Shown: positions 1 through 58,416 of the stretch, one piece after another | How the letters are laid out: every line of letters begins with the position of its first letter | Numbering within the stretch: position 1 is the stretch's first letter | From: a virus | Length of the DNA stretch: 64,000 bases | IMG/VR virus record: IMGVR_UViG_3300045988_162176 | Location: 150,143-214,142 of that record | Strand: one strand, 5' to 3' | Made by a program: the position numbers and the translations under genes | Notes under the pieces: generated by a model | Databases searched by the model: none | The model's input: the letters and a program-made list of their open reading frames with translations, nothing else | Told to the model about the DNA's origin: nothing

Positions 1-428
1 AAGTTTTCACGCTGTCTCGTACCAGCCACAGCAGTAGCAATACCAGACTTTTGAACATCACTAAAGGATGTCCATTTTTCAGAAATATCATCAATGATAT
101 CATCAACATCTCTGAAATTATCAATAGAATCTCTAACACTAATACCAACAGCTTTTAATACCTGTTCAATTTCATTCAGGTTAGAGAAATCTTCTTGGGA
201 TAACCCCTCTTGTTCAGCTTCCTCTTGGGAAACTTCAAATTTTGTTGCGGCAATTTTTTGGAATCTTGAGTACAATGTCTTGAAGCTCTCACCAACAGTT
301 TCAGGTGTCTTCTGAGAAACTTCCGAAACTGTCGTAATCATTGCCATGTATCTATCCAAACTGGAACCCGCCAATTGCGCTGAGACGTTCGCACGACTCA
401 TTGCAGCAGCTAAGTCACCAGCACTAAT
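1..428 (-). CDS. Giant virion protein, exon 2 (partial, runs off the left edge): continuation of the TP901-type tape measure core
   Basis: Minus-strand translation reads ISAGDLAAAMSRANVSAQLAGSSLDRYMAMITTVSEVSQKTPETVGESFKTLYSRFQK..., a tape-measure core pattern. It is in frame with exon 1 once 429-753 is removed. It is absent from the ORF track because it has no start codon. Confidence 0.75.
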   Translation of the reverse strand, partial: MSAGDLAAAMSRANVSAQLAGSSLDRYMAMITTVSEVSQKTPETVGESFKTLYSRFQKIAATKFEVSQEEAEQEGLSQEDFSNLNEIEQVLKAVGISVRDSIDNFRDVDDIIDDISEKWTSFSDVQKSGIATAVAGTRQREN

Positions 429-753
429 CTGTTATGTTTAAATGATTCGCTAAATCATTCGAGAAAATTCTCCTCATACTTTCATATGAGCACTGACTAT
501 ATCTTCACCCTTATTATAAGGGGCGTACTTTTTCGGAAAATCAATCGCTTATTTCCCTACTCCTTTTTAGGATAGTCGATGGACATTATTCTATTCAAAT
601 CTTCGCTGCTGATTATCTAATCTTTATATTTTTTTAGCATTCACATTTAAGTTTATTTCATCTTTATGTTGTAGCATATAAAGCTCTAAAGATTTCCCAG
701 CAATTAAATACGTTTTCACTCACATATTACTATGTTTGCGACCTATTTTATTA
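429..753 (-). ncRNA. Group I-like intron A (no ORF) interrupting the giant gene
   Basis: Non-coding insert of 325 nt. It starts with in-frame TAA TAA straight after GCT (exon ends in T) and ends in ...AACAG before ATT AGT. It shares sequence blocks with the inserts at 19245-19604 and 26310-26681: GTTGTAG, TTCCAGCAATT, GCTGCTGATTA, TAGTCGxTGxAC. Confidence 0.6.
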
Positions 754-3700
754 AGCCGCCGCCATATCAACCGCAGTTAATTTATCAACAACTTCTCCCA
801 CTTCATCAACAGAAAGTTTCCAACCTTTAAGAACAGAAATTAAATATTCCGTAGCTTTGGCGGAATCAATCATACCAAGAACGCTAAGATTCATGGAATT
901 TTCAACAAGCTGAGAAGCTTCTTGTCCTTCGTAACCAGCACGAAGCCAATCGTTAGCTGCCGTGGCAACTTCTTCTGTACTCTTACCAACTTTACGAGCT
1001 AATGTATTAAAATCAAGCATCATGCTTTGAATCTCTTTATAGCTGTAACCACTTGCAATCTGCAAGTCAACCATTACTGCATTAAGAGACTTAGCACTAT
1101 TCATGATTTGATTAAACATATTTCTAACAGTCATTGCCAATTGATTAGCAATAACATCAATACTTACTAATCTTGCAAAACTGTTAGTAAACGTCTTTCC
1201 TATAGTTTCAAGAACACCTTTTTGCTCTCTATAAGTAGCATTAATTTTAGTAAGCTTAACTTGATGTTGAGCTTGCAAATTAGCTTCCTGTTGTTCGAGC
1301 TTATTAATGGCTTCTTGACTATAGCCCATTTCTTTAAGTTCTTTAACTCTTTCTGCATATACAGTACCCTATTGCTTTAACAAATTCAATTGTTCACTTA
1401 AAGCGGTACGAATATTTTCCTGCTCAAGTTTTTCATATCCTGAAGAATTACTGACTTTTAAATCTGTTCTTTGAATCTCTTCTTGCAACTTCATCTGTTG
1501 CTTAAGATTATTAAGATAATCCTTAATATCTTTATTACCTTGAGAATTTTGGAAACCTGTATTCCTGTTCATTCTATCAGTAATAAATTGAGGTCTATTA
1601 TTTAATTTTTCACCATTCTGATAGTAACCAGTGGTAGCAAATTGAGATTCAGCAAGAATTTTATCCTGTTGAATACCTTGTCCTTTAGAGCCTCTTTCAA
1701 GACCTTCGGCAACAGTTGCCATAGAAGCAGCTTTACCCTTAGTTGTTTCAACAAAAGATTGACCATCCTTTGTAAAGCTTCTAATAATTTGCACGAAAGA
1801 ACGAGCAAAAGCTTCAACACGAGCTTCACCATCTTCAATAATAGCAGAAATATCTCCCGCCCCAGAGTCTTTATCAAAGCCTTCGAATCCGAGTTCAGCA
1901 ACTCTTGTCTTCAAATCACTTGATAAACTATCAAAAGATTTACCTTCAGATTGAGCTTGCTTTAATTTTTCAACAACCTGACTGTATTCAGATTCAGCCA
2001 TCCTAAGATAAGTACTTGCTTGTAAAACACGAGCGGCACGCATCCGTGGGTCATCTTCTCCACCACTGTTAGAGAATTTCCAGTCTGCAACAGTTACATC
2101 TGCGTATTTACCATTAACTTTTTGACCAAAAGTCAAAGCATCCGCAGTACCAGCAAAAGCACGATTACCAATAACTCCACCAAGCTTAAGCTCTTTGAGT
2201 GTGGAACTATTTAACGCACCAGATGTTCTTGCAGCATTAACAACATCACGGGCTCTACCCTGTTGGCGTTGCAAATCTTCCGCTGTTACAGATAAACCAG
2301 CGCCTCCAAGTTGAGGCGATTTTCTAACTTCATCTATTAATTGCTCCATTAACTCATCAGTCATATTGTCGATGTTTTCAACAATAGCATGAGCAAATGT
2401 ACCCAACGCAGAAGCTTTATTACCAGATTGAGTAGTATTCGGGAATTTACTGTAATCTTCATAAGGCGCAGTTGTCACTTGAGTAACAGACCTAAGATTT
2501 CCGCCCTCAGAAGAATAAGTCTTATCACCGACCTTCATAGTTCTGGAATGACCTTCACCAAGTTCACTCACAACATCAGCCGCAATAAATTTAGCCCATT
2601 CGCCACTTGCGTCTTTCAAATTAGCCGCTTTATCAATAGAATTAGTCTGAGAAGCTGTTTGATTTGCTTGAGCAACAGGAGCATTTGCTTTTACTTCAGT
2701 AGCACCATTTACATCAATGTTACCAGTATTAACAATAACTTTACCATTCTGAGCATTAACAACAACATTACCCTTAGCATTAATAACAGAACCTTCAACA
2801 GTTTCTTCTGTGCCATCTTCAGAAACTCTTACCCATTCGCCATTGTCATTAAGATAAGTCTTATCTTTTCTTAATTCACCATTAAAGGTGCGATAAGGGT
2901 CTAATGCTTTAGAATAATTAGTGGCGTCCTTAAGAGAAAGACCCATTGGTTTAAGATAAGCTTCAAAACTATTAAACGCTTCAATAAGATTTTCCATGGT
3001 CGCGCCCTTAAAGGATGCAAATTTACCATTCTCATCAACGGTAGCAATTCCCATCTTTGTAAGAGCATCAATCTAAGCTTTATCTCCACTTGCAATTATT
3101 TGAGAAGCAACAGTTTCAAACTGCTTACCGTCCATTATACTGCCAAGAACATTAAGGTCTTTAGCAATACTTAAGAAGCCCTTTTGGTCATCAGTATCAG
3201 CAAAACGTCCTTCATGAATTGCACTAACCAAATCTTTAACAGCTAATAAAGCTTGGTCTTCACTCATTCCTTCTTTGCCGATTAATCTTGCGTAAATCTT
3301 TTTAGAAGAAATCGCATCCTGTTCAAAAGATTCCATGGTGGCTCTAATAATAGCAGATTGCACAGCAGAAGTTGCACCATTATTGTCGGCAAACCCTGTT
3401 TTGTACATAGCTTCTCTTGCTTTAGTGTCAGCATCAGAGAACAATCCGACGTTTTGGAATGCCATTTTAGCCTGTTCAGATGCATCTTTATTTATCCATT
3501 TCTTAGATAAATTTTTAGCAATCGTATTCCAGCTATCATCTATATCGACTTTTTTATTTTGAGCTTTTTGCTTTTGAATCTGATTCATAATACTTGCAAC
3601 AGTATCATTGTATTTTAAGATATAATCCTCTGCAAGTTTTTCATCTTCACCATATTGTTCATATACCTTAAGAGCCATGCGGAATTTATCACCGTCAAAG

Positions 3701-6700
3701 TCTCCTCGGAACAATTCAGCCAAACCAGCACTAACTCTAATTGTATCGCCAGCAGATTCGTCCAAACCAAGTCTTGCAGTATATCCTTCCATACCTTGAG
3801 TATAAGGATAACGACCCACTTCTGTAGTAAAAGTGTTATTGCCGCTCTTTATCTCACCAATAATAGCGCCAATAATTTCTTCTTCAAATTGATTTATTTC
3901 ATCTTCCGAAAGTTTATTGGTAAACTTTCCATCTTCAAACCGAGGTCTTAAAGACATCGAAGTAATAACTCTTTGTCCACTCTCTTTAATAGATTTTGCT
4001 CTTAAAGTAGAAAAGAGTCTGTTAATATTTTCAAGCCTGTCTTGTTTAGTAGCGGAAGATGTACTGCTCATTAATTCTCTTAAACGCTTAGAAGAAATAT
4101 AAACCGTATTAGCTTGTTCATCTGTTAAATCAGCCAACTTAGAAGTACCCGCCGCAACAGAGAAAGCAGAATAAGGTACATAATTATGAGTAGCTTGTTT
4201 TACCAACTCGGAATCTTTTGTATTGCCAAGTTTATGATAAACATCAGCCGCATATTGCTTTGCTTTCTCAAAAGCTTCTTGGGATTCTGTAGCAGCTTGC
4301 AGTAATGCAGAGTTAGCACTATCAATAGCGCCAGAATAATATTCTCCATCAGGAGACATTGCTGCACCAGCATCTCCAAGCAAATATTTCTTTCCACCAA
4401 TGGCAGAATCAGAAAGATTTAATACAATATTACCACGAGCATAAGCTTCACCTTCAGACCCTTCTAAAGCAGAAAGTTCTTTTTGAAGTTGACGTGCTCT
4501 TTCCATAGCGAAGTTTTGGTATTCCTCCGCACTTATCTTACCAGAATGTCTTAAAGCATTGATGTCAGTAAGAATATCAGAATAAACCTAATCACCAGCT
4601 TGAAGAACTACTTGACCATCTTGAACTCTAAATTCAACATCTTTTGTTCCTTTGGCAGTGGTATAATCTGTAACATTATTAAGAGATTTGTTAGCTGCAA
4701 TTAAATTCTTGCGAACTTTTTGAGCCTCCAAACCTTTTTTGCCATATGTATTATCTTGTTTTTCTTGTTGAGCTTTTAAGCTCTTCAAACCAGCAATAAC
4801 TTTTTCTCTATCTTTAAGATTACTTTGACCAGCAGCAGATTTAGTAATATAATCTAAACTTCTTTGTCTTGCATTTCTTACTTTCCAGTCATCAGTAACA
4901 CGTCCATCTCTTTCAAGTGTATTTGCACTACCATAACCAGAAGCATTAGAATAAGGATAAATATTGTGCTGTCCAATGCCAAGAGAAGCTAATCCTTTAA
5001 TAGAATCATATATTGCCTATGCTTCAAAAGCACTCTTACCAATCCGTTTAAAGATTGCCAATGCAGATTGTTCGATTCCCTTAAAAGAAGCTAACGTTTC
5101 CTCTGGATTAGCAAAAACATCTTCGCCTCGCTTGTTTGTAACAACACCATTTTTCTCATCGGTAATATCAACAAGTAATTTCTTTTCTTCTCCATTCTCT
5201 CCCGTTACAGTTTGAATTTCAAACATCTTCTAAAGGAGAGGAGGTAAATTACTATAAATGTTTTCAAGAGAAGAGCCTTGTTCCAAAGCCTTATCAATAA
5301 TGGTGTTTATTTGACCCATGAACTCAGAATAATAATTACGTTCTTTTACATCATCATTCAGCAAAGTCAAATAATCAGCATCAGCAATAGCATTCTTACC
5401 TCTTGCAGCCCAAAACTGTTTAACAAAATCAGCTTTACTTACTCCATGTTGTTTTTCTGCATCAGCAGTTAAACGTCTACCACCTTCATCAACAAGCTTT
5501 ACACCTTGTTCAACTTGTCTAAGTCTGTCAACCAGTAATTTCCAACCGTTATCAGTTTTCTCAAGACCAACCAGTAAATCCCCCTCATTTACAGAGAAAT
5601 CTTTAGAGAACATCTTAAACTGGTCTTTGCCAACTGTTTGATTAATATCAATAACTGAACCAGTTTGATAATCGCCAGAAGCAAGACTATCAATATCTAC
5701 ACCAAACTGATTTAAGAAATCTAAAACAATATCTTCAGTATTGGTAGCCTTAGACACATTCCTTTGAATACTTTCAGTTTCAGCAATAATCTTGTCTGTA
5801 ACTAAAGCAACATCGGTCATATCTTTCAACATAGAATCTATTCTATGTGTATAATCTTTATCGCTTTCACCAGCCATTTGAGGATTGAAAGATTGATAGT
5901 ACGCTCTTTCAGCTTCATCAAATTCTTTTTGAGTTAAACCATAACTCTTATATCTCTTATGTGTGATATCTGTTCTATCAATACCAGCATCCAAAGCTTG
6001 CTGAGTAGTAGTAACAACTTGACTCATGGCATCAGAAGATGCTTCTCTACTTGCAAGAGCTTTTTCAGATAATCTTAAAGTATCAAAAGCCTGAGATAAA
6101 CTTCTTTGAGTTGCGTCTATACCTTGACCAAAAGGAACATATTGTCTTGAAGATACGGTGTAATTTTTACCAAGAGCAAATTTACCCTCGGATTCACCAG
6201 TATAATCGCTTGGCATCGCCGCACCAATTTCTTTAGCCGCTTTTCTATAATATTTAAAAGCATCACTGGTCATAATGAATTTAACCAGTTCATCAGCTAT
6301 AGTATCTGGGTCTAAATTTTCTTTCATAGCCAACGCCCAAGCATTAGCCATAGCGTCAGTTAATTCTTTACTTGGGTCAAAAGCATTGTAATTTGCTTTA
6401 TACCCTTCGTTATTTCCTGTAAAATAGCCACTTAATGCCTCTTTAACATCTTTTTGATTAAGAGTAGACTGAATTTCTCTAGCGATACTATATTGAGTAG
6501 AACGCATAGCTTCTAATTCGGTTAATTTACCAGAATAGCGAGTATTAGAATCTTGAATGTCTTCTCTTGCTTCAGAACCCATCGTAACAGAAGATACTTT
6601 GTTAATAGCTCTGTTTGCCCCTGATTGCAAACGACGAGAAATTTGGTCGGAAGAATATTTAGTAAAATCTGTATTTCTTAAAATAGAAGTCGCATCTTTA

Positions 6701-8160
6701 ACCTGTAAAGTTTCTGCCGTTTCCATTACTTTGACACCCTTTACTTCAGGAGTGCCATCTTCTTTCAATTTTCCAGTGGGGATAAATTCTGTTGCAACTT
6801 CAGCTTGATTGATTCTACCACCAGCAATTCTACCAGTTTCATCACCAACTGCAAAAGATACTTTTATATTATTCTCTTTTTTCCAATCTGTTGATTTGTA
6901 TTCTTTATCTAAAGGAATAAGCATAGCCTGAATTTCAGAACCATTTCTTCTAAAATAAACAGAATAACCTTTCTTTTCTGCTTCTTCAACAAATGTTGCT
7001 AAGGCATCACGAGTAGTACCATATCCCTTATTACCGCCACCCGTAATATTAGATACATCTTGTCCAGCTCTACTTTTTTGTCTGTTCCTATATTCAGCAC
7101 CAGTTAATGAAGCTTTCGCTCCTTCGTTAAAGCCATTAATTAAAGCATCTAAACTCTTATAGACTTCAACAGAATGACCTTGAATATTTTCTTTGTCAGA
7201 AGCAAAAGTACCACCAAAAGATTCAATTTGCTATTTTGACAAAGCTCCAGAAATTCCACCAGAATTTTTAGCAATTAAATTAAAACTGCTTCTGTATTTT
7301 TCTGCCTCTTTTTTAGCTGTTTCTTCAGTAACATTCCTCTAAGTTTGAATAGATTTGGAAAGCTAATTAATTATAGCCTCCACTCCATCAAAAGTATCAA
7401 AATCTTTAGAAGAAATAGCTTTTACAAAATCAGCTTTAACCGCACTATTAACCATTGTTTTTGGAGTTGTTGGCATTTTAACTGTTTTGCTTTTTGTGGC
7501 TTTTGCAACAGTTGGCTTTTTTGTTCCTATGTTGGTAATCCCCTAATTCAAAGACAAACCAACATCTACAGCCATTTTTTGAACAGCAGTAGCTAATTTG
7601 GCTTCTTCTTTAGAAGTATCAATAGGCGTAAAACCAGATTTCTTTTCTTGAAGTCTTTTTACTCTATATATAAGCTCTTGACCTCTTTCTTGTGCCTTTT
7701 GTGTCAAAGCTTGATAAATAAATTCATAAGCTTTCCTTTGCTCGTCTACACTTCCTTGAAAATTTTCAGCTTGTTTTATCATATCAATAGCCATATCAGC
7801 TTGCTAATTGATATAATCAATACCCTGTTGTTCTAACTATTGATTCTTAGCATCATTTACAGCTATTTTCTTTTTGTTCTTGTTGTTTTGCCCTTGTCTA
7901 CTAGCTTTTAAAGTCTCCGTAGACTTTTTCATATTAGAAATTTGTTGCTCTCTTTGAGCATTCAACATATCAATAACATCGTTAGTTTGAGTGCCATTAT
8001 TAATTAGACGCTTAGTAGCTTCTTGGGCTTTCTTTGTATCTATAGCCTAACCAGTACTCTTACCTTTTTCATCCAAGCCATAAGTTTTTTTTATATCCGA
8101 ATATGCTTTAGCTTGAATATCTTCTATTCTCTATTCTAAACTTTTCAGTAAATCTTCCAT
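754..8160 (-). CDS. Giant virion protein, exon 1: N-terminal two-barrel RNAP-like region (DFDGD at 3688-3702) fused to a tape measure domain; 13 in-frame TAG
   Basis: ATG at 8158-8160 has GGAGG 8 nt upstream. ORF-track fragments 7543-7794, 5230-6924, 5017-5226, 4588-4788, 3073-4506, 1369-3054 and 751-1329 share one frame and are separated only by TAG. I checked every in-frame codon in the inter-fragment gaps (6925-7542, 7795-8160) and the short junctions at 5227-5229, 4789-5016, 4507-4587, 3055-3072 and 1330-1368, and found no TAA or TGA. The C-terminal part (1329 to 754) reads ...LNAVMVDLQIASGYSYKEIQ...VDKLTAVDMAAA, matching a TP901-type tape measure core. Confidence 0.8.
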
Positions 8161-8173
8161 GTATTATTCCTCC

Positions 8174-8824
8174 TTATTTTAATTGAATTCCATATTTTTT
8201 ATAAATCATTGGCTTCAATTCAACCAAATACTATTTTTCATATTCTTGTTGAGCTCTAAAACGAGCTACTCTATAGGTTTCATCTATAGAAGGTAACGTA
8301 CTTAAATCTATTCCTTGATTAATTGGATTAAAATTGTAATAATCCAATCTAACATCTGCAAGCACATCTTCTTGAGAATCTTCGTCCATTTTACCACCTG
8401 ATGATAAAAAATCCTAATCGTCATCCTAAAAAAACTAATCAATAAATAATCCAGCAGCTTCGTCTTCACTTCTGAAATTCTTTACCGTGGATTCTGATAC
8501 TGTATTTGGATTAAATTTTTTCTTTTCCCTATAGTTCTTATTGCTAAATTTGAACTTTGCCGTATTGTAGGTGCAATAAGGTGTAGCATCGCTATTTTGT
8601 CCAAAATACAAAGAAGACATTAAAGAATCTTCGTCATATAAATCTCCATAATAGTTATCAAATACACTTTTAAACACACTTTTATATATTGCTGTATAAC
8701 TATTTAACAATTCAATTTTAATTGCCATCACTCTACTTGGCAACATCTTTTTAGTTGCATCTACAGTTTCTTTTATTTCTTTTTTTAATGCATTTGAAAC
8801 TGCATTTGGTAACACTTGTTCCAT
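8174..8824 (-). CDS. Hypothetical protein; possible tail assembly chaperone by position only. 4 in-frame TAG
   Basis: AAGGAGG RBS and ATG at 8824. ORF 8435-8824 continues through TAGs to a TAA at 8174-8176, just upstream of the giant gene's RBS. Confidence 0.6.
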
Positions 8825-9625: not shown

Positions 9626-11125
9626 TTAATCCTTTTCCTTCTTTATTGGAAATTTACTTTTATTTTTAGGCTGTGATGGGTCATAACCTAAAATCGAATA
9701 ATCTATTTCTTCTCCATTTTCGAGAAGATTTTTCAGCTATATTAAATCTGTCTAGGACAAATCTCGCATCGGAATTATTTTGTAGCGATTTTGGAAAATA
9801 CGATAATCTGAAAAAACAGAGGGATTATATTTTTCCCGCATTACTTTCTTCGCTAATTCTGACCTACTATGCCAACTCCACAAATACTATTCCTAAATTA
9901 AATCGTATAAGACAATAGGCACTTCTGGTACTGCACAACTTGCACAAGGTTGTCCATGATTTATTTCAAAAAAGACGTTTTCCTTGCCATCTACATAGTA
10001 ATAAAAGAATAAAGTTATTGGACACTTTGGCTCAAGTCTTTCTTTCTTCTCATATGACCATAAATGATTTAATCGGTACAAGCTGTTATTTTTTATAGCT
10101 TCGTTTATAGTAGAAGTTTCTACCCCATATTCAACTGCTACAGCTCTATGATTTTCCCATTCTCTCTAATATTCTCCATTTAAGGAGTATTGATAAACAG
10201 GAGGCAAATCCTTATCCTTTTTTACTACTGGATAATCAAAGAAAGTAATATCTTTTGTAAGATGTTTCCAATTTCTTTTGTTCTTTATATCATGAATGGC
10301 AGCTTTGTCCACCCCATATTTTTTAGCAAGAAGAGGAATAGAAGTCCCTATTTTTAATTCTTCAATAATTTCTTTTACCTGAACTAAAGTTAATTTCGAA
10401 GAAGTACTATTTTCTCCTCTTGAGGATGTATCTCTTTCTTTTATATCACATTTTTCTCTAATTTTACTAAGCATGTACCGTTTATAAAAACGTAACGTTG
10501 TTCCCTTTTTTACCCCAACTTTGGCATCTATATCAATACAGCGCATTGGAGTGTTTAATAATTCAATTATTTCTTTTAGCTATTCTACTGTAATATTAGT
10601 ACGTTTTTCTAAAGTGTTCCATGTTACATCATTAAATCCTCCGTGGGCATGGTCAGCTTGATTAAAACCTGTATTTTTTCCTCTAGCCCCCAAAGTGTCA
10701 ATATAATACTGCTCTCTTTTTTCAATATAAGATTTATTTTCGGCTATGCTTATTTCTGGTTGCCATTTATAAAATTCAATAATCTAAAAATCAAAATTGT
10801 TTAATCCATGCTTATTATAACAACGTTGCAAATGTGAATTAAAATGAATTCCTTTTTTTAAATCGTTTAAATGACGTTTTAGCCTTCTAATTAACCGACC
10901 ATTGCTTCCAGTTGACCCAACGTATATTCTATTATCAGTCAAATCTGTAATTTTATATACCCCTTTAGCTTCTCTGTATATCTTAGCTAATTGTCTTGTT
11001 TCATCCTTTTTAGAAACAGAAGTAAAATCTTCTCTGATTATTTTATTCAAATGTTTGTTTAGTTCATTTAAATCATAATCTTCAAAATATTCTAAATCGT
11101 ATTTAATTGAATTACTATTATCCAT
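9626..11125 (-). CDS. Free-standing GIY-YIG homing endonuclease with C-terminal helix-turn-helix-like regions; about 7 in-frame TAG
   Basis: GVYKITDLTDNRIYVGST is the GIY...YIG motif. The domain continues across a TAG (NNFDF*IIEFYKW...REQYYI). Fragments 10784-11125, 10166-10546 and 9893-10081 share a frame, and the frame ends in TAA at 9626, just before the next gene's RBS. Confidence 0.7.
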
Positions 11126-15399: not shown

Positions 15400-15850
15400 A
15401 AACAAACAAGATTTTAACAAAAGGTTAATTACTCCCTGTCCTGTTCTTCTTTGTTGCATAAAACGCTAAAACTAAACTCTAACGTCTTAAGGAACTCCTT
15501 GTACACATGGTACATGAGATATGTGGCTCAGACCCGCTTTACGGACCCGTAAATTTGGTCTTCTTTAAGTCCTCATCCTATGCTCATGGACACCACATTA
15601 AAAAGCTACAAGACTATGCCTCGTAGCTGGCCTAAATATACAACATGGTATATAAGGTGATAAGGTTTATGCCGACACCTTAAAACGCCTTTCTCTTCCA
15701 TTTGAAACCACGCATGAAAGTATGTTGGTTGGACAGTTTTAATTGCTACCCTGTGGAAACCTGACAACCCTAATAAGCCTCCATTGCATCACTGGATGGT
15801 AGCCCAATATACAACTTCTCTGGCAACCCTGACCTCTTGTATCAATAGGT
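15400..15850 (-). ncRNA. Candidate large structured non-coding RNA; class and strand uncertain
   Basis: No ORF of 60 aa or more in any frame between 15183 and 15892. By eye it is richer in G+C than other intergenic DNA here. It has many short complementary segments, for example GCTAC...GTAGC, GCTACC...GGTAGC and TTTACGG...CCGTAAA. It sits between a hairpin and the next gene. Confidence 0.35.
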
Positions 15851-25259: not shown

Positions 25260-26681
25260 CATTAAGAGTTATTTAGTGTTTTTAGCTTTTTGCTATTCAT
25301 AATCTTTTAAAATTATTTCAGTGTAATAATTACCATCTTTTAATAACCAATTTATTTTGTCAATTATTTCTTGCTTCTCTGGAATAGAATGGTCTCCTTT
25401 TATTCTCAAAACTTTGTAGCCCATTTTTTGAACTACTCGGTCTCTTTTAATATCTTTCTGTTGGTCTTGATGCCAATACCAACCATCATATTCCAAATCT
25501 ATTCTGATATCCCTAATAAAAATAGCTACGTCTAAATTAAGTTGACTTAAAGGGTAATTCAACTCTACTTTATATTCATCTTGAAGCATTTCATAAATTT
25601 TTAATTGTTGTGAAGAACATGGAATTAATTCTCTTTTATTAGCCAATGCTTCTTGCATCCTTTTTCGTATTTCTGGATTTTGTACAGGGTAATCACAGCC
25701 GTATTTTTCCTTGCAAGTATTGACAGCTTTAGTCCTTACTTCTTTATTCGAAAAAGGGTTTACATCTCCATATTTTTCCAAGCAAGTTTTAATAGCTTTT
25801 TCTTTTGCTTCTTTTGTTAAAAATGGATATTCAACTCCATATTTTTCCAAACAAGTCTATTTTGCTTTTTCTTGACTTTCCCTAATCTACCGAGGACTAT
25901 CCACTCCATATTTTTCCTTTAAAGTTTTCTTAATTTTTTCTTGGATTTCTTTGCTCTTAAGTGGACTATCTACACCATATTTTTCTAAATTTGTTTTTAC
26001 AGACTTGTTATTTCTTTGAGCTATTAATTCTTTATTCTTTCCCCAACAATCTTTACAACAATATTTACCATCATGCTTTTCTATTCTTTTTAAATATTTT
26101 TTATATTGAACTGTTATTTCTTTACCACAAAAATCACAAATAGCCACAACATCTCTATGGCTACCTTCTGGCAATTCTTCTGGTTTAACTTGAATAGTCT
26201 CCCCTTTAAAAAGACTATAACCTTTTTCATTGAAATATTTCTAAGCGGTTTGTGTCCAAGGAATTTCAATTAATTGATTTTCTTTTAACATACAAACCTC
26301 CTTTTTATTTTATTTAAACACTAAATTTTTCGAATCGTCAATTCGCTCTAACCCTTTCGGATTCTTATGTTTTCACATAAGCTTAGACTATATCTTCATC
26401 CCAATAGGATGTCCACCATTTCGGAATAATTTATTGACTATATTCCTACTCCTCTTATGAGGATAGTCGTTGAACCTTCTTCTTTTCGAAGCTTGGCTGC
26501 TGATTACCAATTCTAAGATACTTAGGGTTTAACCTTATATCATACAATCAATTTTTTCTGCTTTCGCAACTATCACGATTAAATCTATTTCAATTTTGCG
26601 TTGTAGTTTGATTGTCTTTATGGTATTCCAGCAATTAAATGGAAATATTTTTACGCATATTGCTATACGCCCTAGCTATTT
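25260..26681 (-). mobile_element. Group I-like intron C in the major capsid gene, carrying a homing endonuclease ORF
   Basis: The 5' portion (26681 down to 26310) shares the conserved blocks of introns A and B at the same spacing: 45 nt from the 5' splice site to AATTGCTGG, as in intron B. The ORF fills the 3' portion. The intron ends ...TTAATG. Confidence 0.6.
25269..26291 (-). CDS. Intron-encoded homing endonuclease: KYGxxxP repeat region plus a C-terminal PD-(D/E)xK (DUF559/Vsr-like, EDxHD-type) domain; 4 in-frame TAG
   Basis: AAAGGAGG RBS, ATG at 26291. Five tandem repeats end in KYGVDSP / KYGVEYP / KYGDVNP / KYGCDYP. The C-terminus DLEYDGWYWHQD...DRVVQKMGYKVLRI fits the Vsr/DUF559 pattern. 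Confidence 0.65.
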
Positions 26682-46053: not shown

Positions 46054-47460
46054 TCAACCAAACCTTCCACCTCTTCTATATTTAGTGGAAAGTGGATTTA
46101 CCTGTCCTAATCCGTTGAAAGGATTAGAACTATTACTTTTGTTTGCACTCTTTTGTTTTGCAAACATTTCTTTAAATTCTGTCTTAGGTTTTTCTTCCAA
46201 CTCCAACACTTCTTTGGCACGCAACTCCATCAAATGATTACACATCATTGCTACACAGTCAACTCGGTCATCATGCATATTTTTTTGCTTGGCATCAGGA
46301 GAAAGTTCAAAAACAATCGTACCATTTGGCCTTTTTTGCTTTTGCATACCAACTAACTCTTCTTTAGTTAAATCAATCTATATCAAAGAGTTCATTTCAT
46401 CAAACGAAACCTTTTCATATCTTATTGAAGTTGTTCCATCGGAAGCAACCTCTTCAATTTCCATCTCGTTACGAGCATTTAAACTCTTTGGAAACATTAC
46501 TAATCCTTGGTTAATTGCAGCTTGAGTTCTTTCATAAGCTTGAACTTTATCACGTTTAAAATTGAACAACTGCAATTTTCTTATATTTGCAGGATAATCA
46601 TCTGCGCGTAATTTCATATATGGGTCTTCTTCATCTATAAGACCTAAATGACGTTTACCATCAGAACCGACCCAATCATTTAAAAGGAACTGAGAAATAT
46701 CAAATCCTCCACCGCCAGCACCAGCATCAATACAGACAAGCTCAATATTATCATAATCTAAAGCACCTCTATTATAATTTATAATAAGGTCTTTTATCAT
46801 TTCAATTTGCTGAGGCTTTTGAATTATTGCCTTATCACCATTAGGCAAAAGCTCAATCAAATTCTCACAATTGACTATTTTTAACATTAAACCCTTTTCT
46901 TTGTCTCTGAACAATTCTCCTATTAAAACAATAGAATTATCTAATTTCGATGCAGGGTCATAACAGACGATATATTTCTTCTCACCATCGTTTTCATATA
47001 CTGGATAGTATGCAAAACTGTTTCGCAAAATCGTTGAGCGTTTTACAAAAACATCTTCACCACCGTCTCTGTCAAAACGATTTTTGTATTCTCGTTCTGC
47101 TTTGTATGGATTAGTAGCAAATGCGTTGTCAACTTCATCCTAAGTAATCAGTGGTTTCATAGGCTTACCATTCATAAAAGGATGTAATGAAAACTCACAA
47201 CTAATATCACACACAAAATAATTGGGGTCTCCTAATAACATTTTTTCAAATGCCATTTTATATTGGTCAAAAAGTTCGCTGTCAATACCTTCAGCAGAAC
47301 TTAACAATAACTTTTTATTCGGTAATTGTCTTGGATATATATCTGTATTAATACCATCACCAGTAATAAAGTTTGTATCCTGTGCCGTAAAAGGACGAGA
47401 CAGAGCAAAGAATGTTCTGTCGATTTTTCCAGCTTCATCGTAAACTGAGAAACTTGCGAC
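46054..47460 (-). CDS. terL: Terminase large subunit, exon 2 (Walker B plus nuclease domain); 2 in-frame TAG
   Basis: ...ASFSVYDEAGKIDRTFF... is the Walker B region. Fragments 46378-47028 and 46054-46347 are in frame. The exon start is approximate (within about 5 nt). Confidence 0.7.
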
Positions 47461-48658
47461 TTGTTATCGTGAAGTTTTTTATCTTCACTTCTTATAATTT
47501 CTTATAAGTCCAGCATAAATTTTCACGCATTTGGCTTACGTGGAGGACACTCGTGGCGAGATTATATTTATTCACTCACTATGCGTTACATTATTTATTA
47601 GCCTTTCGCAATCTAATAAATTAACTCGGTATTATCATATTTAACAACTTAGACTCCACCGATTTTGCCCTCTAATTATTTCAAAATGTCATTGTTTTAT
47701 TTCTTTTACCCAGTGAAAACCACCAGCAGTATTTTGTTTTCCACTAACAACCCTTTGTATAGAAGCTTTGTCTACACCTTTTTGTCTTCCTGCTTCAGCG
47801 AACGAAGGAAATTTTTCTCCTGTCTCAACACAAATGCAATAATAAGGAGCATGACCTTCTCCAATTTTTCGTTTCCAGTCCTCATCCATTTCTCTGCCAA
47901 GCATTGCTTGCCTCATTTTTTCTTTGTATTCTTCTGTTCTTTCAGGTCTTTTGTAATCAGGATGATTTTTATACCATTCTTTTCTTACTTCGCTCATCTT
48001 TTTCTTAGACTCTTCTGAATGGTGTTTCCCTTTTTGAGCTTCGCTACGCTTTTTTATTTCTTCCGCTGTTAATTTTCTTCCATACATGGGATTATTTTCA
48101 CCAGATATATCTCTATTTGATGCATGAATTTTATTTTTCTTCCGAATGACTTCTTTGGTCTCTTCAGAATGTTTTCTCCCATAAAAAGGATTTTTTTCAC
48201 CATCATAGCGTCCTTCCATAGTTTCCTTAAGTTTCTGCTTGGTCTCTTCACTTAAAGGTCCGTTAGAACCGCCTTCTCTTGTGTTATATCCTTTTTGTGG
48301 ATTTCTTGAATCATAAAAATCAATCATTTCTTTCTCTTTTTTATCTGCTTCTTCTTTTGTTAAATTAGCAAATAAAATTTCATGGTCGAAATTATCCCAA
48401 CCATATTTTATAATTGCACGAGCAATCTGAGGCTGAACCCAATCTCCATTTTTCTTTTTATGAAGATATCCTTCTCCATTATTACCCGTTCTTTCTATTA
48501 AAGACATGCCTGTTAATCCGATATAAACTTTTCCATTATCTTTACAAGTATGTTTATAAACTATATAATTATTTTCCATTTTATCTCCTTGAGAATAGCC
48601 TTTAGCCAAATATTCTCAAAATAAAACTTGGCTTCATTTTGAAACGGCAGTTTTCCTA
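47461..48658 (-). mobile_element. Group I-like intron in terL carrying a GIY-YIG homing endonuclease
   Basis: An insert of about 1.2 kb separates the Walker A exon (GRNSGKS ... LYNGSTINTLNS) from the Walker B exon. Non-coding flanks of about 80 and 230 nt surround the endonuclease ORF. Boundaries are approximate. Confidence 0.55.
47689..48579 (-). CDS. Intron-encoded GIY-YIG homing endonuclease with NUMOD3-like repeats
   Basis: AAGGAG RBS. MENNYIVYKHTCKDNGKVYIGLT is the GIY...YIG motif. Repeats NPFYGRKHSEETK / NPMYGRKLTAEEIK / GKHHSEESKKKMS. Confidence 0.8.
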   Translation of the reverse strand: MENNYIVYKHTCKDNGKVYIGLTGMSLIERTGNNGEGYLHKKKNGDWVQPQIARAIIKYGWDNFDHEILFANLTKEEADKKEKEMIDFYDSRNPQKGYNTREGGSNGPLSEETKQKLKETMEGRYDGEKNPFYGRKHSEETKEVIRKKNKIHASNRDISGENNPMYGRKLTAEEIKKRSEAQKGKHHSEESKKKMSEVRKEWYKNHPDYKRPERTEEYKEKMRQAMLGREMDEDWKRKIGEGHAPYYCICVETGEKFPSFAEAGRQKGVDKASIQRVVSGKQNTAGGFHWVKEIKQ

Positions 48659-54595: not shown

Positions 54596-55562
54596 CTTCT
54601 TTAATTTGATTGAAGCAATCTCGACATATAATGTCTGTTAATTTAGTATACTTGTTGATTTCTATTTCTTTTCCGCATTTTGAACATTTAACTTTTCTTA
54701 AATTTTCTCCCTCTTTAAAGATTTTCTTCTTACCAAGTAATTTTGCACAATCTTTACAATATTTAGGAGGTCTTCCTCTTTTTTCAGGGGCGTTCTTTTT
54801 TGTAAAAAATACTGTTTTCCCGCAATTCTTGCACTTGTAGCTCGGATATTTTTGACTTTTTATCCAATTTCCGCAATTATATAAATCGTCACCGCTTAAT
54901 AAAATTCTGTTTTTATCCGTAACAGGAATTTTAAATACATCATTGTCCATAAATTTAGGTATAATTCCTAAACCATGATTTATATCAATATATCCCATAT
55001 CATACAGCAAATTCCTTTCATTTTTTAAGGAAAAGCTAGCTGTTAAACCAGCATCTTGCTTAAATCTTTTTCGGTCTCTATCAGTCCAATAAATTCTATC
55101 TGGCTTTTCTAAATAATTTTCTTGAACTTTTACCCATACAAAAATAGTAAAAAGAAATTGTATTCTTCTTATATTCATGGGTTTCTTAGAAATCTTTACA
55201 TTTGACCTTCTGTTTTTTAAAGATTCCAACTCTTCTTGTGTTAGACTGGTTTCACTTAAATTTAAAAACCAGTCTAACACTTCTTCGGAAAATTCTATTT
55301 GCTTAATTTGTCTTAAGGGGTCTTCTTTTTTCCAAGCTTTTTCAAAAATGTTGTTAAAAGTCGCATAATGAACATTTTTGTTCCACCCTACAACATAGCG
55401 TTCACATTTTTCTTTGGCTTTTAATTTGGCTTCTGCTTTTTTATCCCCTTCAAGCTTATAATATCTAATAAGAAGAATTAAATCTCTTTTCCATTCTTTC
55501 TAAGAGAGACCTGACTATAATACATTTTTAATATAACCAACTTCATCATATATATCAATCAT
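54585..55562 (-). CDS. Hypothetical protein with C-terminal multi-CxxC zinc-ribbons; 2 in-frame TAG
   Basis: ATG at 55562 after GAAGGAG, overlapping the upstream TGA. CKNCGK...CKDCAK...CSKCGK...CRDC. Confidence 0.5.
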
Positions 55563-58416
55563 CTGTTATTTCTTCTCCTTCTAAATCGCTAACTAAATAT
55601 CTCTCTATAGAAAAATTATCATATAAAAATTTTAAAGAACCATTATCATTCTTTAAAGGATAATAAAAGCTAGTTGTTTTTTCTTTTAAATTTTCGTAAA
55701 TTTGTTTACCAGCAACAGCCCATAAAATATTCTTATTATAAGAGGGTTTATCGACATAAAATAAATATACTAAATGATTAGCCAATTGCTCAGAATTTGA
55801 ACAAATATCTTCTAATTCATTTTTTAGATTTTGATATAAAATTTCTCTATCAAGATTTTCTTGAAAACCTACTCTTGTAACCATATTTGAGTAAATTTGC
55901 TTTCTTTTTTCTTCCCAGCTCTTAACTGTGTTGACAACTTTTTCTAGAATTTGCTGATATAAAGCTCTGTTTAAAACAAAGTCTTTACTCTGTAAAGATT
56001 TATAATCAAAATCTCCATTTGACTTTATCTTTTTCTTAATTTGAAAATCTATACTTTCTATATATTTACAAATTTTATTCATTACACAAGGAGAATCTAT
56101 AACTGGGTAATAATAATGATAGTAATTTATAAAGTATTTTTGCTCTTGAGTTAATTCGTCTTCTTTTTTAATTAAAAGTTCATCCAATGTCATTGCAAAT
56201 CTAATTTGACAATCCTCATTGCTCTTGTTAATAAAATCTCTTAACTCTTTATTGGTTTTATTATATTTATATTTAAAGAAATAAGGCTTTTTCTCGGCTA
56301 AGATTCTATTGTAAAAATCTTTCTTTTCTTTTTCTTCTAAACTTTCGTCTTTAGTGTGATGCTGATATTGTTTCCAAATAGTTGCTTCAGCCTTAACATT
56401 TTCGCCAATCTTCGTCTTATCAATCTAGCGGCTCTAGCTGCCACAGCACATTTTAACTCTGTCTTCGAGCAAATTTCTTTCAGGTGTTCCCTTTTCAAAA
56501 TTTGCGATTAAAGCGCAAAATGTTGTTGAAACATTAGTAATTTGACCAATTCTTGTACCAAAACTAAAAGTGTCAGTAAAAAATAAATCATCTTCTGTAA
56601 ATATTTTCTTATGAGGCTTTTTAGGCTGATAGGTAACTACTCTTTGATTAGGAAATTTACCATTGATAACTTCTGGCCTCACCAAATTTGCTGCAATATC
56701 CATGTCAAAATCGCTCCCAGAGAAATTCATTGTGTAAATACCATGAATATTAGTTATCATACCAGTATAAGAAAACTTAAAATATTTTTCTATTTTTCTA
56801 ACAACTTCTTCATCAGACATTCCCATATTTCTGTCAATTACTTCCTCAGAAGAAAAATTGTAACGATAATCTTTATCAAGTTTATATTTATTCTTTGCTA
56901 TATACCATTCACTAAAATGAGTCATTGGACTTCTTGCACAGGCAATTCTTTCCTCATCCTTTTTAGCCCAATAATTCATATAAAATTCCCGTTCTTTAAG
57001 TAAGCCTGTTACTTTTTGACCAGTAATCCATTGCATTAAACCGTAAGAATCTGGCACAATAACACTAAAATTTCCTTCGCAATTTATTTTACCTAAACAA
57101 GCAAGCTGAATTCTTTTTGCAATTAAATCTCTAATTTTTTCTTTAGAGTATTTATCGTTAATTAAAGTTTGATTGAGAATTAAACTTTTCAGCCAATAAT
57201 CTTCACTATTGCTCATAAATTTAGAAATTCGCTCTTTATCATAGCTATCTCCCATTAAATATAAAAGTGTATAGTAAACATTATCTCCGCTTACGCCAGA
57301 AATATAGTCTACCGTGTCTTGGCATAAAGTTTTAATATCTTCGTCAGATAAATTTAATGTCTGCAAGAATTGATAGTTCATGGTAAGAACTTTTTTATCT
57401 TCTCTTGGAGTGTATTTAGTTACTCCAAAATAAATTCCGTTCTTATCTCCATTTTCTTCCAAACTTTCCTGAGAATCCCAACTATCCCATAGTTTAACTT
57501 GACCTTCTGTAAGAATAACATCTATTTCTCTCAGGTCTCGAATTTTACCGTAAACATCTTTGATTAAATAATTACCATTATTTTCTTCTTTACACCATTC
57601 TATAAAATCAAATTCGTTTACCATTCCTTTAGTAAACGCATATCTAATACAGAATTGACAAGGAGTGTAATCTTCACCAAGGTCTTTTCCCCATTGTTCA
57701 GCCATTTGAGGACTGATTAAACCAGAACCATCAAATCTATTAAATTCAATGTCAATTGTCCTTGGTTCTATAATGTCATCTTGGTCTATTGGTTGTTCAA
57801 TAATAAAGTCAACATCAACCATTTTATTTTCTAAATAATCAGGAACAACACAAAAACGGGGTTTTGTTACTTCTTTAGTCGCACTTGAATATAAACCAAA
57901 ATATGCATTATATTTACTAGGAGCTAATGGATGATTTAAATCCCTTCCATTATCAAGTCTTCTCTTTAATTCTGTTTTTATGGTTTCTTCACAAAAAACA
58001 ACCGTGCTAACTCTTGCTTGAGAAGCAGAGCAAGAAAGCCTTTTGTAAGTTTTTCCATTGAATACAAAACCTTTTTTATAAATCTTTTCATATTCCTTTA
58101 CACTATCCATTGTAACAGTAATATACTCAGGAATATACATCATATTATAAATTTTGCTTTGTAATTCTTTTACTTTTTCACGATTTGTTTTGCTATTTTT
58201 CTTTCTCTTTAATCTATCTCTTTCAGAGTACCATTCTTCAAGCTGTACTCTATCAATCTTCTAACCAGTTATATCACGAATACTCTTTAGCATTTGACTA
58301 TCTGCTAAAGAAACAATTAGATTGCTCTTTAAACAATCTTGAAAACTAATGTCTAAATTATAGCCGTTTTCTTTAATTAATGCACTGTTAAGCTTAACGG
58401 TGTAAAATAAACGCAC
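55555..58416 (-). CDS. YonO / eukaryotic-RdRP-like single-subunit two-barrel RNA polymerase; 3 in-frame TAG
   Basis: GTG at 58416 after GAAGGAAGG. Fragments 56434-58143 and 55555-56193 are in frame. DFDMD at 56698-56712 within NFSGSDFDMDIA. Upstream lie ARSPMTHFSEW and QFCIRYAFTKGMV (57619-57657). Confidence 0.65.

What the first reader, a model, noticed from the sequence alone, without database searches (positions are those of the whole stretch)
1..8160. Giant ORF (at least 2,611 codons) fusing a two-barrel RNA polymerase catalytic motif to a tape measure domain
With TAG as sense, one frame runs from ATG 8160 to 754, skips the 325-nt intron and continues off the window. No internal SD site precedes any TAG-delimited fragment.

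Codons 3688-3815 encode GRYPYTQGMEGYTARLGLDESAGDTIRVSAGLAELFRGDFDGDKFRMAL. This parallels the beta-prime double-psi beta-barrel active site NRAPTLHRLGIQAF...I.LHPLVC.AFNADFDGDQMAVH: an RxPT motif, similar spacing, and the Mg-binding DFDGD.

The last roughly 330 residues seen in the window are a clear TP901/PhageMin_Tail-type tape measure core.

Virion-delivered RNAPs are known as separate cargo proteins (T7-like in N4; two-barrel gp66 in crAss-like podoviruses). I do not know of one fused to the tape measure of a long-tailed phage. Tape measure proteins are thought to leave the tail lumen ahead of or with the DNA at infection. A fusion could therefore deliver a polymerase to transcribe the incoming DNA. 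That function is inference.
Basis: partly seen in the sequence, partly recalled or inferred. Interest (0 to 1): 0.9.

Follow-up and report, generated by a model that had tools for sequence, protein, structure and literature searches.

The report
Tape measure protein carrying RNA polymerase module
A gut-type giant phage that reads TAG as an amino acid encodes a huge tail tape measure protein with an RNA-polymerase-like catalytic domain and a nuclease domain in front of it; a similar fusion was shown to be an injected polymerase in Thermus phage P23-45 in 2024, so this is a new, unrelated family of a known kind.

Summary
On the minus strand, 8160..754 is one frame with 13 TAG and no TAA or TGA. 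It has a strong ribosome-binding site only at its start. A 325-nt group I intron (753..429) splices it to 428..1, giving at least 2,611 codons. The end is a PhageMin_Tail tape measure core (E=2.6e-27).

The RYP…DFDGD segment is a real beta-prime-type catalytic barrel. It is invariant in 14 relatives that share only 13-36% identity. A profile of the segment hits only RNA polymerase largest subunits in the PDB (best E=9e-5). An AlphaFold model matches only beta-prime chains (E about 4e-6).

Two relatives with no TAG codons in this gene have the polymerase motif and the tape measure core in one ORF. The fusion therefore does not depend on recoding.

The second, beta-like barrel was not found.

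A PD-(D/E)XK nuclease domain lies between the polymerase and tape measure parts. A separate QDE-1/YonO-like polymerase gene lies at 58293..55555.

The novelty claim fails. Thermus phage P23-45 gp96 is a published tape-measure-fused virion RNA polymerase (Chaban 2024). This family shares only the DxDGD motif with it, so it is a new variant of a known kind.

The parts
754..8160 (-). Exon 1 of the giant ORF. 2,469 codons with 13 in-frame TAG read as sense.
   Evidence: A 93%-identical protein, P0001, is on record with Q at every one of these positions.
8169..8175 (-). Shine-Dalgarno AAGGAGG in front of the ATG at 8160. It is the only strong ribosome-binding site in the 7.4-kb frame.
429..753 (-). 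Group I intron, 325 nt, with no ORF inside. It splits the tape measure core between ...AVDMAAA and ISAGDL...
   Evidence: Rfam RF00028, 57.7 bits. Splice sites were read from the sequence: U before the 5' site and G at the intron 3' end. The junction restores the sequence of uninterrupted homologs.
1..428 (-). Exon 2, partial. 142 codons that run off the window.
   Evidence: In a 92-96% identical scaffold (L023) this exon continues for about 2,273 codons, so the complete protein is about 4,750 residues there.
3667..3828 (-). Beta-prime-type catalytic barrel (DPBB-A), residues about 1445-1498. R1450-Y-P1452 is at 3813-3805. The Mg-binding D1487-F-D-G-D1491 is at 3702-3688.
   Evidence: R, P, D, D, G and D are invariant in 14 relatives. 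In a profile search of the PDB, all 21 hits are RNA polymerase largest subunits; the best is vaccinia Rpo147, E=9e-5, aligned from RxP through DFDGD. Foldseek also supports it. The predicted strand-strand-strand-helix-loop-strand order fits.
3283..3468 (-). Two conserved helical blocks after the barrel, residues about 1565-1626: VG.FS(N/D)..T..R and EQDAISSKK..R. They are candidate bridge-helix and trigger-loop equivalents.
   Evidence: G1573, Q1615, I1618, S1619, K1621, K1622 and R1626 are invariant, and the region is predicted helical. The functional assignment is by position and by eye against Supplementary Fig. 9 of PMC10770324. It is an inference.
5461..5610 (-). Conserved beta-rich block, residues 851-900: FSKDFSVNEGDLLVGLEKTDNGW...GVKLVDEGGRR. 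It has a nearly invariant K888 and an invariant R896. It is a possible second barrel or a small SH3-like barrel.
   Evidence: Conservation is shown. A PDB profile search gave only non-significant SH3 hits (E about 0.1) and no RNA polymerase second subunits. The nature of this block is unresolved.
1975..2427 (-). PD-(D/E)XK nuclease domain, residues about 1912-2062, with the motifs G.AD...V.DWKFS...QAS.Y.
   Evidence: Pfam PF12705, E=3.6e-5, 24.3 bits against a cut-off of 22. The equivalent domain in standard-code relative L011 scores E=2.4e-9. The motifs are conserved in 7 homologs.
754..1005 (-). Tape measure core (PhageMin_Tail), the part in exon 1, residues 2386-2469.
   Evidence: Pfam PF10145, E=2.6e-27. 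phrog_4211, E=1.1e-28.
21..428 (-). Tape measure core (PhageMin_Tail), the part in exon 2, residues 2470-2605.
55555..58293 (-). Separate 912-residue polymerase gene of the QDE-1/YonO (RdRP) two-barrel family, with ARSPMTH...SGSDFDMD. It has TAG at codons 11, 620 and 623. It is the candidate non-virion polymerase.
   Evidence: Pfam PF05183 RdRP, E=1.2e-14, 54.4 bits against a cut-off of 23.8. phrog_8308, E=2e-127.

Best explanation
This is the 5' 60% or so of the tape measure gene of a roughly 215-kb long-tailed phage that reads TAG as a sense codon. The phage is probably a siphophage of gut Firmicutes.

The gene is translated from a single ribosome-binding site at 8160. It is spliced at a group I intron inside the tape measure core.

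The product is about 4,750 residues in close relatives. Its order is: (i) a conserved N-terminal region of about 1,750 residues that contains a beta-prime-type Mg-binding catalytic barrel (RYP...DFDGD) followed by conserved helices; (ii) a PD-(D/E)XK nuclease domain; (iii) a coiled-coil linker; (iv) a conventional tape measure.

By analogy with Thermus phage P23-45 gp96, the polymerase module would be built into the tail with the tape measure. It would leave the tail with it at infection and transcribe the first genes of the entering DNA.

Shown here: one ORF, the intron, the tape measure core, the beta-prime-like barrel, the nuclease domain, conservation of the fusion, and a second stand-alone polymerase gene in the same genome.

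Inferred: polymerase activity, presence in the virion, delivery, and which genes it transcribes.
For: One ORF:
- 13 TAG and no TAA or TGA in 2,469 codons.
- A strong ribosome-binding site only at the start.
- TAG occurs inside most long ORFs of the window.
- Relatives L012 (3,701 residues) and L011 (2,378 residues), which have no TAG in this ORF, carry R.P...DYDGD and PhageMin_Tail (E=3.8e-32 and 3.2e-31) in one ORF.

Intron: Rfam hit. The splice restores the conserved sequence.

Catalytic barrel:
- Exhaustive HMMER found 16 relatives, eight of them 2,166-4,071 residues long.
- R, P and D.DGD are invariant in 14 sequences that share 13-36% identity with the window protein.
- The protein fits the [RK]xPx{20,100}DxDxD filter that Chaban et al. 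used.
- In a profile search of the PDB, all 21 hits are beta-prime, Rpb1, Rpo147 or Rpo1N. The best are E=9e-5, 0.003 and 0.007.
- With the AlphaFold model (8-sequence alignment, pLDDT 56, barrel region 50-84), 263 PDB hits have E<=1e-3 and the 50 listed are all beta-prime chains.
- In BFVD, apart from the phage's own relatives and a few unnamed entries, the named matches with high probability are RNA polymerase largest subunits of jumbo phages and giant viruses.
- L012 gives a weak LEF-9 hit (E=6.6e-4) at the motif.

Precedent: P23-45 gp96.

Parallel with P23-45: a separate RdRP-family polymerase gene lies in the same window.

Long non-contractile tail: the gene in close relative L023 that aligns with window 19244-18217 carries Pfam YomU_Tube, and no sheath was found.
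Against: - No second, beta-like barrel was detected. Profiles of two candidate regions found no RNA polymerase second subunits.
- Profile comparison with P23-45 gp96 and gp64 aligns only the DxDGD motif.
- The AlphaFold model has low overall confidence (mean pLDDT 56, pTM 0.37). Global TM-scores to beta-prime are about 0.1.
- Pfam, NCBI-style names and PHROGs give no polymerase annotation for this region.
- The stand-alone polymerase gene contains three TAG codons. It cannot be translated before TAG decoding is available, which weakens a strict P23-45-like cascade in which the virion polymerase first makes the non-virion polymerase.
- No suppressor tRNA lies in the window.
- There are no virion or activity data.
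Confidence: 0.6

Rival explanations
1. The barrel is a real nucleotidyl-transferase site, but the module is not an early-gene transcriptase. Together with the adjacent PD-(D/E)XK nuclease it acts on nucleic acid in another way after injection. Examples are priming, RNA-templated synthesis as in QDE-1, processing of the entering genome end, or attack on host DNA or defence systems.
For: A nuclease domain is fused next to the polymerase-like region and is conserved in most relatives. P23-45 gp96 is not reported to have one. Two-barrel enzymes include RNA-dependent (QDE-1) and DNA-synthesising (PolD) members. The stand-alone polymerase gene needs TAG decoding.
Against: The nearest profile and fold matches are DNA-dependent RNA polymerase largest subunits. 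The only characterised tape measure fusion is a transcriptase (PMC10770324).
Confidence: 0.2
2. The fused module has only the beta-prime-like half of an active centre. It works only with a separate beta-like partner, either a phage or a host protein, or it is a non-catalytic relic that now serves as tail-lumen or ejection cargo.
For: The second barrel was not found. The best matches are beta-prime subunits of multisubunit enzymes, including the split enzymes of phiKZ and AR9. Only 64 kb of about 215 kb is visible.
Against: About 1,000 residues upstream of the barrel are conserved across the family, which leaves room for a divergent second barrel. Strict invariance of R.P and D.DGD at 13-36% identity argues for catalysis. 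Second barrels of single-subunit enzymes are known to be undetectable by sequence.
Confidence: 0.12
3. The polymerase-like and tape measure parts are separate proteins. Either TAG terminates translation, or the sequence is a misassembly, or the DFDGD is a chance motif in a non-polymerase barrel such as a cell-wall-lytic one.
For: Under the standard code the frame breaks into 14 pieces. No suppressor tRNA is in the window. DxDxD alone is a short motif.
Against: No fragment has its own strong ribosome-binding site. Relatives with no TAG in the gene have the same fusion in one ORF. Eight independent contigs agree. All PDB profile hits are polymerase largest subunits aligned over more than 50 residues. 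Post-translational cleavage between the parts is not excluded, but it would not make them separate genes.
Confidence: 0.04

Closest known systems
Thermus phage P23-45 gp96, a tape-measure-fused virion RNA polymerase (Chaban et al. 2024, Nat Commun 15:317, PMC10770324)
   Same: A giant tape measure ORF (5,002 residues against about 4,750 in close relatives here). A polymerase module with an [RK]xP...DFDGD site lies N-terminal to the tape measure. The phage is long-tailed. The same genome holds a second, stand-alone two-barrel polymerase gene.
   Different: - There is no detectable sequence relationship beyond the DxDGD motif.
- DFDGD is at residue 1487 rather than 779.
- A PD-(D/E)XK nuclease domain is inserted between the polymerase and the tape measure.
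- The gene is TAG-recoded and split by a group I intron.
- The phage is a mesophilic, roughly 215-kb phage known only from metagenomes.
- The second barrel, activity and virion location are not shown here.
- The stand-alone polymerase is of the RdRP/YonO type, not gp64-like.
Beta-prime, Rpb1 and Rpo147 largest subunits of multisubunit RNA polymerases, including phiKZ and AR9 non-virion enzymes
   Same: The RxP...NADFDGD barrel aligns by profile (E=9e-5 to 0.007) and by fold.
   Different: No other Pfam polymerase domain is recognised. No beta-like partner was identified. The module is embedded in a structural tail protein.
crAss-like phage phi14:2 gp66 and phage N4 virion RNA polymerases
   Same: Very large virion proteins that carry a polymerase to be injected for early transcription (known from the literature).
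   Different: Those are podovirus cargo proteins, not tape measures. N4's enzyme is T7-like, not a barrel enzyme. They were not compared directly here because Foldseek lists only the top 50 hits.
Bacillus phage SPbeta: YonO polymerase, YomU tail tube and YomI tape measure
   Same: The window phage has an RdRP/YonO-family stand-alone polymerase. The tail tube gene of a close relative carries Pfam YomU_Tube.
   Different: From my own knowledge, not tested here: the SPbeta tape measure is not known to carry a polymerase domain. The relationship of the rest of the genome was not tested.

Membership tests
Two-barrel (double-psi beta-barrel) RNA polymerase | DPBB-A with the signature [RK]xP-x(20-100)-DxDxD (metal A site) | tested here: met
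   R1450-x-P1452, then 34 residues, then D1487-F-D-G-D1491. It is invariant in 14 relatives. All 21 PDB profile hits are largest subunits, best E=9e-5.
Two-barrel (double-psi beta-barrel) RNA polymerase | Beta-prime-like fold around the motif | tested here: met
   Foldseek against the PDB gave 263 hits at E<=1e-3, and the 50 listed are all beta-prime chains. BFVD hits include RNA polymerase largest subunits of jumbo phages and giant viruses. Caveat: model pLDDT is 56 overall and 50-84 around the barrel.
Two-barrel (double-psi beta-barrel) RNA polymerase | Second barrel (DPBB-B, beta-like) with conserved basic residues facing the active site | tested here: inconclusive
   Conserved blocks at residues 851-900 (K888, R896) and 1245-1360 are candidates. 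PDB profile searches gave only weak SH3 hits for one and nothing for the other. No further structure predictions were available.
Two-barrel (double-psi beta-barrel) RNA polymerase | Bridge helix and trigger loop after DPBB-A | tested here: inconclusive
   Conserved helical blocks lie 82 and 125 residues after DFDGD. The resemblance to the gp96 and gp64 motifs (GQ...; D..K(K/R)) is by eye only.
Two-barrel (double-psi beta-barrel) RNA polymerase | Template-dependent RNA synthesis | not testable with these tools
   Needs biochemistry.
Phage tail tape measure protein (PhageMin_Tail / TP901 type) | Pfam PF10145 above the gathering score | tested here: met
   96.5 bits against 33.2, E=2.6e-27, residues 2386-2605 of the spliced protein. 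Four PHROG tape measure families also match.
Phage tail tape measure protein (PhageMin_Tail / TP901 type) | Encoded in a tail module of a long-tailed phage | tested here: inconclusive
   A YomU_Tube-type tail tube gene lies about 10 kb upstream in close relative L023 and aligns with window 19244-18217. Recombinase, nuclease and protease genes lie in between. The genes downstream of the tape measure are outside the window.
P23-45 gp96-type tape-measure-fused virion RNA polymerase | Polymerase module and tape measure in one ORF, with the polymerase N-terminal | tested here: met
   The same holds in standard-code relatives L011 and L012.
P23-45 gp96-type tape-measure-fused virion RNA polymerase | Sequence or profile homology to gp96 beyond the metal motif | tested here: not met
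   hhalign of the family profile against gp96 residues 1-1200 gave probability 0.5%. The core against gp96 680-1060 and against gp64 aligned only the DxDGD stretch.
P23-45 gp96-type tape-measure-fused virion RNA polymerase | Second, non-virion two-barrel polymerase in the same genome | tested here: met
   ORF 58293..55555 matches Pfam RdRP, E=1.2e-14. It belongs to a different family from gp64.
P23-45 gp96-type tape-measure-fused virion RNA polymerase | Present in virions and transcribes pre-early genes | not testable with these tools
   The phage is uncultured. No match was found in GenBank phage genomes.
Group I intron | Rfam RF00028 above the gathering score, and splicing that restores a conserved ORF | tested here: met
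   57.7 bits against 50. U precedes the 5' splice site and G ends the intron. The junction AVDMAAA|ISAGDL equals the uninterrupted homolog sequence.
TAG-recoded phage (TAG read as an amino acid) | Long ORFs free of TAA and TGA but with in-frame TAG, genome-wide | tested here: met
   27 of 44 minus-strand ORFs of at least 150 codons contain TAG. The giant ORF has 13.
TAG-recoded phage (TAG read as an amino acid) | Suppressor tRNA(CUA) or other recoding machinery | tested here: inconclusive
   No tRNA was found in the 64-kb window. About 150 kb of the genome was not seen. The amino acid inserted is not established; Q and K dominate at aligned positions.

The most novel reading that the evidence does not exclude
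This would be a second family of tape-measure-fused injected polymerases, with no sequence similarity to the Thermus phage one beyond the catalytic motif. It has a PD-(D/E)XK nuclease built into the same polypeptide. It is spread across roughly 200-kb long-tailed phages of gut Firmicutes, both TAG-recoded and standard-code. If true, tape measure proteins would be a general vehicle for delivering nucleic-acid enzymes, and polymerase-tape measure fusion would have arisen more than once.
Probability: 0.5. Interest if true: 0.65.

Novelty: new variant of a known kind. Interest (0 to 1): 0.55.

Why it matters
In the literature I could search, P23-45 and its close Thermus relatives are the only reported case of a polymerase fused to a tape measure.

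This finding suggests the arrangement is not a thermophile oddity. Fourteen distinct relatives were collected. They are giant ORFs of 2,166 to more than 5,500 residues from metagenomes and metagenome-assembled genome bins of Bacilli, Lachnospiraceae, Christensenellaceae and Bacteroidaceae. None has a match in GenBank phage genomes, and the five checked carry no name in their source databases.

The added nuclease domain and the beta-prime-like character of the barrel offer a new system for three questions:
- How a folded enzyme travels through a tail tube.
- How the first transcripts are made in phages that also switch genetic code.
- How two-barrel polymerases diversified.

On the practical side, standard gene callers shred this gene into 14 fragments, so the family is invisible in routine annotation.

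Tried and rejected
**Searches that found nothing**
- Pfam and PHROGs on the whole protein recognise only the tape measure part.
- phmmer of residues 1244-1760 against PDB sequences gave no meaningful hit.
- tblastn and megablast against GenBank phage genomes gave no match.
- The search for homologous proteins, with a single sequence and with an alignment, gave 0 hits. It even missed the 93%-identical P0001, so its word index failed here.

**Structure prediction**
- Single-sequence AlphaFold of residues 1192-1695 gave pLDDT 39 and was unusable.

**Comparison with other polymerases**
- hhalign of the family against P23-45 gp96 and gp64 aligned only the DxDGD motif. Against the window's own 912-residue polymerase it aligned nothing meaningful.
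- A per-member Pfam scan at E<=10 gave one weak RNA_pol_Rpb1_2 hit (E=0.09) in one of 8 members.

**Search for the second barrel**
- Profiles of residues 780-960 and 1225-1400 against the PDB gave only SH3-like noise and nothing, respectively.
- I noticed by eye a resemblance of 'GDLLVG..KT' and 'G.K......GGR' to the beta-subunit motifs 'GDILVGK' and 'GDK..GRHGNKG'. I do not rely on it, because the order and spacing differ and no search supports it.

**Other**
- A co-occurrence test for the stand-alone polymerase in relatives' contigs retrieved only near-identical copies on other contigs, so it was uninformative.
- Identity of the amino acid at TAG: aligned positions are poorly conserved, with K 19 and Q 12 of 68, so this is not decisive.

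Full report
**1. The observation**

The window is AT-rich (27-41% G+C). Its genes lie on the minus strand up to about 59.3 kb.

The minus-strand frame that starts at ATG 8160 runs 2,469 codons to TAA-TAA at 753-748. It has 13 in-frame stops, and every one is TAG.

TAG as sense is a property of the whole window. With TAG allowed, 44 minus-strand ORFs of at least 150 codons appear, and 27 of them contain TAG.

The ATG at 8160 follows AAGGAGG. None of the 13 TAG-delimited fragments has a Shine-Dalgarno match of 5 or more bases before its first start codon. By the same scan, 39 of 57 ORF starts on that strand have a match of 4 or more bases.

Rfam places a group I intron at 473..763(-), 57.7 bits. 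Reading the sequence, exon 1 ends at T754 and the intron ends at G429, which makes it 325 nt. The join gives ...LTAVDMAAA|ISAGDLAAAMSRAN... Relatives that lack the intron read straight through the same sequence, for example P0006 (AVDMSAAISAGDLALAMSRAN), P0007 and L008.

The spliced ORF has 2,611 codons and leaves the window. Every factual point in the finding is correct. Only the nucleotide range quoted for the peptide is slightly off.

**2. The tape measure part**

Pfam PhageMin_Tail matches residues 2386-2605 (E=2.6e-27). PHROG tape measure families match residues 2197-2608.

A 218-kb ENA scaffold (L023) is 92-96% identical across this region. It has the same gene order. In it, exon 2 continues for about 2,273 codons, so the complete protein there is about 4,750 residues.

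In that relative, the gene that aligns with window 19244-18217 carries Pfam YomU_Tube, the SPbeta tail tube family. No sheath protein was seen among 30 window ORFs scanned. Together with the size of the tape measure, this points to a long non-contractile tail.

Related contigs are 180-220 kb long.

**3. The polymerase-like part**

Routine searches saw nothing here.

An exhaustive HMMER scan with residues 1192-1695 found 16 proteins. Eight of them are giants of 2,166-4,071 residues. Translating IMG/VR loci added further members, up to more than 5,500 residues.

A 14-sequence alignment was built from members that share 13-36% identity with the window protein. These features are invariant or nearly so:
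- the R and P of RYP;
- a glycine in the helix before the motif;
- D-x-D-G-D;
- the downstream blocks VG.FSN..T..R and EQD.IS.KK...R.

The spacing (RxP, 34 residues, DFDGD) fits the [RK]xPx{20,100}DxDxD filter that Chaban et al. used to define two-barrel polymerases.

A profile of residues 1425-1640 was searched against 177,635 PDB sequences. It returned 21 hits at E<=10. All 21 are largest subunits of multisubunit RNA polymerases, and the four printed alignments lie across the catalytic barrel:

| Hit | E-value | Aligned span |
|---|---|---|
| Vaccinia Rpo147 | 9e-5 | 53 residues, from RxP through DFDGD |
| phiKZ non-virion enzyme | 0.003 | |
| AR9 beta-prime | 0.007 | |
| ASFV, Pol II and archaeal Rpo1N | weaker | |

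An AlphaFold model of residues 640-1760 of the 93%-identical P0001 was built from an 8-sequence alignment. Its mean pLDDT is 56, with 340 residues at 70-90. It predicts strand, strand, strand, helix, the DFDGD loop, then strand, which is the order in beta-prime.

Foldseek with this model gave 263 PDB hits at E<=1e-3. The 50 listed are all beta-prime chains, including AR9. In BFVD, apart from the phage's own relatives and a few unnamed entries, the named high-probability matches are largest subunits from jumbo phages, poxviruses, ASFV and giant viruses.

I conclude that the beta-prime-type barrel is real and under selection.

**4. What was not shown**

The second, beta-like barrel was not found. 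Two conserved regions upstream are candidates: residues 851-900 and 1245-1360. Their profiles hit only SH3 domains at non-significant E-values, or nothing.

The family aligns with P23-45 gp96 and gp64 only at DxDGD. That is expected to some extent. Chaban et al. state that polymerase families share no significant similarity beyond that motif. Even so, 'two-barrel' is an inference here.

**5. The fusion is real**

Two relatives have no TAG in this ORF, so the fusion can be read in them under the standard code:
- L012 is one ORF of 3,701 residues. It has RYP...DYDGD at 1109-1151, a weak LEF-9 match at that site, and PhageMin_Tail at 2172-2389.
- L011 has DYDGD at 1060, PD-(D/E)XK at 1585-1719 (E=2.4e-9) and PhageMin_Tail at 2144-2354.

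The fusion therefore depends neither on recoding nor on one assembly.

**6. Extra anatomy**

Residues about 1912-2062 are a PD-(D/E)XK nuclease (PF12705, above its cut-off). The motifs G.AD...V.DWKFS...QAS.Y are conserved in the relatives.

The tape measure core is a hotspot for insertions:
- The window has one ORF-less intron.
- L023 and L004 have that intron plus a 1.3-kb insertion with a 327-residue ORF, 12 nt further on. L004 also has another 365-nt insertion.
- L011 has two adjacent group I introns.

**7. Context relevant to the mechanism**

ORF 58293..55555 (912 residues) matches Pfam RdRP, the QDE-1/YonO two-barrel family (E=1.2e-14). It carries ARSPMTH...SGSDFDMD. The genome thus has a fused polymerase and a free one, as P23-45 does.

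The free polymerase gene contains TAG at codons 11, 620 and 623. The six plus-strand ORFs at 59886-63767 have none. If TAG decoding is switched on only after infection starts, the first targets of an injected polymerase are more likely the TAG-free genes than the free polymerase gene. This is an inference.

**8. Comparison with known systems, and novelty**

Chaban et al. (Nat Commun 2024, PMC10770324) showed the following for P23-45 gp96, a 5,002-residue tape measure:
- it has an N-terminal two-barrel polymerase with 779-DFDGD-783;
- it is present in virions;
- it transcribes pre-early genes, including the gene for the non-virion polymerase gp64.

This family differs from gp96 in these ways:
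- no sequence relationship beyond the motif;
- closest matches are multisubunit beta-prime subunits;
- a nuclease domain;
- recoding and introns;
- host range and genome size.

I found no other report of such fusions in the searchable literature. I found no homolog in GenBank phage genomes.

Verdict: a real feature. It is a new variant of a known kind, with function inferred by analogy.

Noticed in passing
window 55555-58293 (-): A stand-alone 912-residue polymerase of the RdRP (QDE-1/YonO) two-barrel family. Pfam PF05183 E=1.2e-14; phrog_8308 E=2e-127. Motifs are ARSPMTH and SGSDFDMD. It has TAG at codons 11, 620 and 623.
   Followed up: partly
window 1975-2427 (-), inside the giant ORF: A PD-(D/E)XK nuclease domain between the polymerase-like region and the tape measure. 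It is conserved in relatives (E=2.4e-9 in L011).
   Followed up: partly
window 19245-19632 (-): A second group I intron (Rfam 19288-19599). By alignment with the intron-less relative L023, it sits only 7 nt after the ATG of the YomU-type tail tube gene, whose exon 2 is 19244-18217.
   Followed up: partly
window 26364-26723 (-): A third group I intron (60.1 bits). A homing-endonuclease-like ORF follows directly at 26291..25269. The interrupted gene was not identified.
   Followed up: no
window 9626-11125, 47689-48579, 53873-54595 (-): Three GIY-YIG-type homing endonuclease ORFs. The one at 48579..47689 lies just upstream of an ORF (47256..46054) that matches only the C-terminal part of large terminase, so the terminase gene may be split.
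   Followed up: no
window 15729-15825 (-); also L004 1014-1110: A match to the Rfam 'drum' small RNA (RF02958; 44.7 bits against a gathering score of 43). It is conserved at the same place in a relative.
   Followed up: no
window 59300-64000: A strand switch with a reversal of GC skew. Six plus-strand ORFs (59886-63767) contain no TAG at all, unlike their neighbours. They are possibly early genes that can be translated before TAG decoding is available.
   Followed up: no
L023 17760-19081; L004 15480-15844 and 16207-17527; L011 14026-14691: Relatives carry extra insertions in the same tape measure core. L023 and L004 have a 1.3-kb element with a 327-residue ORF 12 nt into exon 2. L004 has a 365-nt insertion. 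L011 has two adjacent group I introns. This site is an intron hotspot.
   Followed up: partly
P0004 and P0007 N-termini (relatives, not the window): By eye, these homologs begin with DnaQ-like 3'-5' exonuclease motifs (for example SLYFDTETTGL, and H.A..D). The window protein lacks them. This was not tested.
   Followed up: no
window 33743-34708 and 51099-51872 (-): Two endolysin genes. The first matches amidase and endolysin PHROGs (E=3.8e-51). Together with the genome bins in which relatives were found, they suggest a Gram-positive gut host.
   Followed up: no
window 11377-12375, 12375-12911, 13360-14670, 14682-15338, 15893-17341 (-): Genes for a tyrosine recombinase, a Holliday junction resolvase, an SbcD-like exonuclease, a ClpP-like protease and a beta-CASP/metallo-beta-lactamase nuclease lie between the tail tube gene and the tape measure gene. 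This is an unusual content for a tail module.
   Followed up: no
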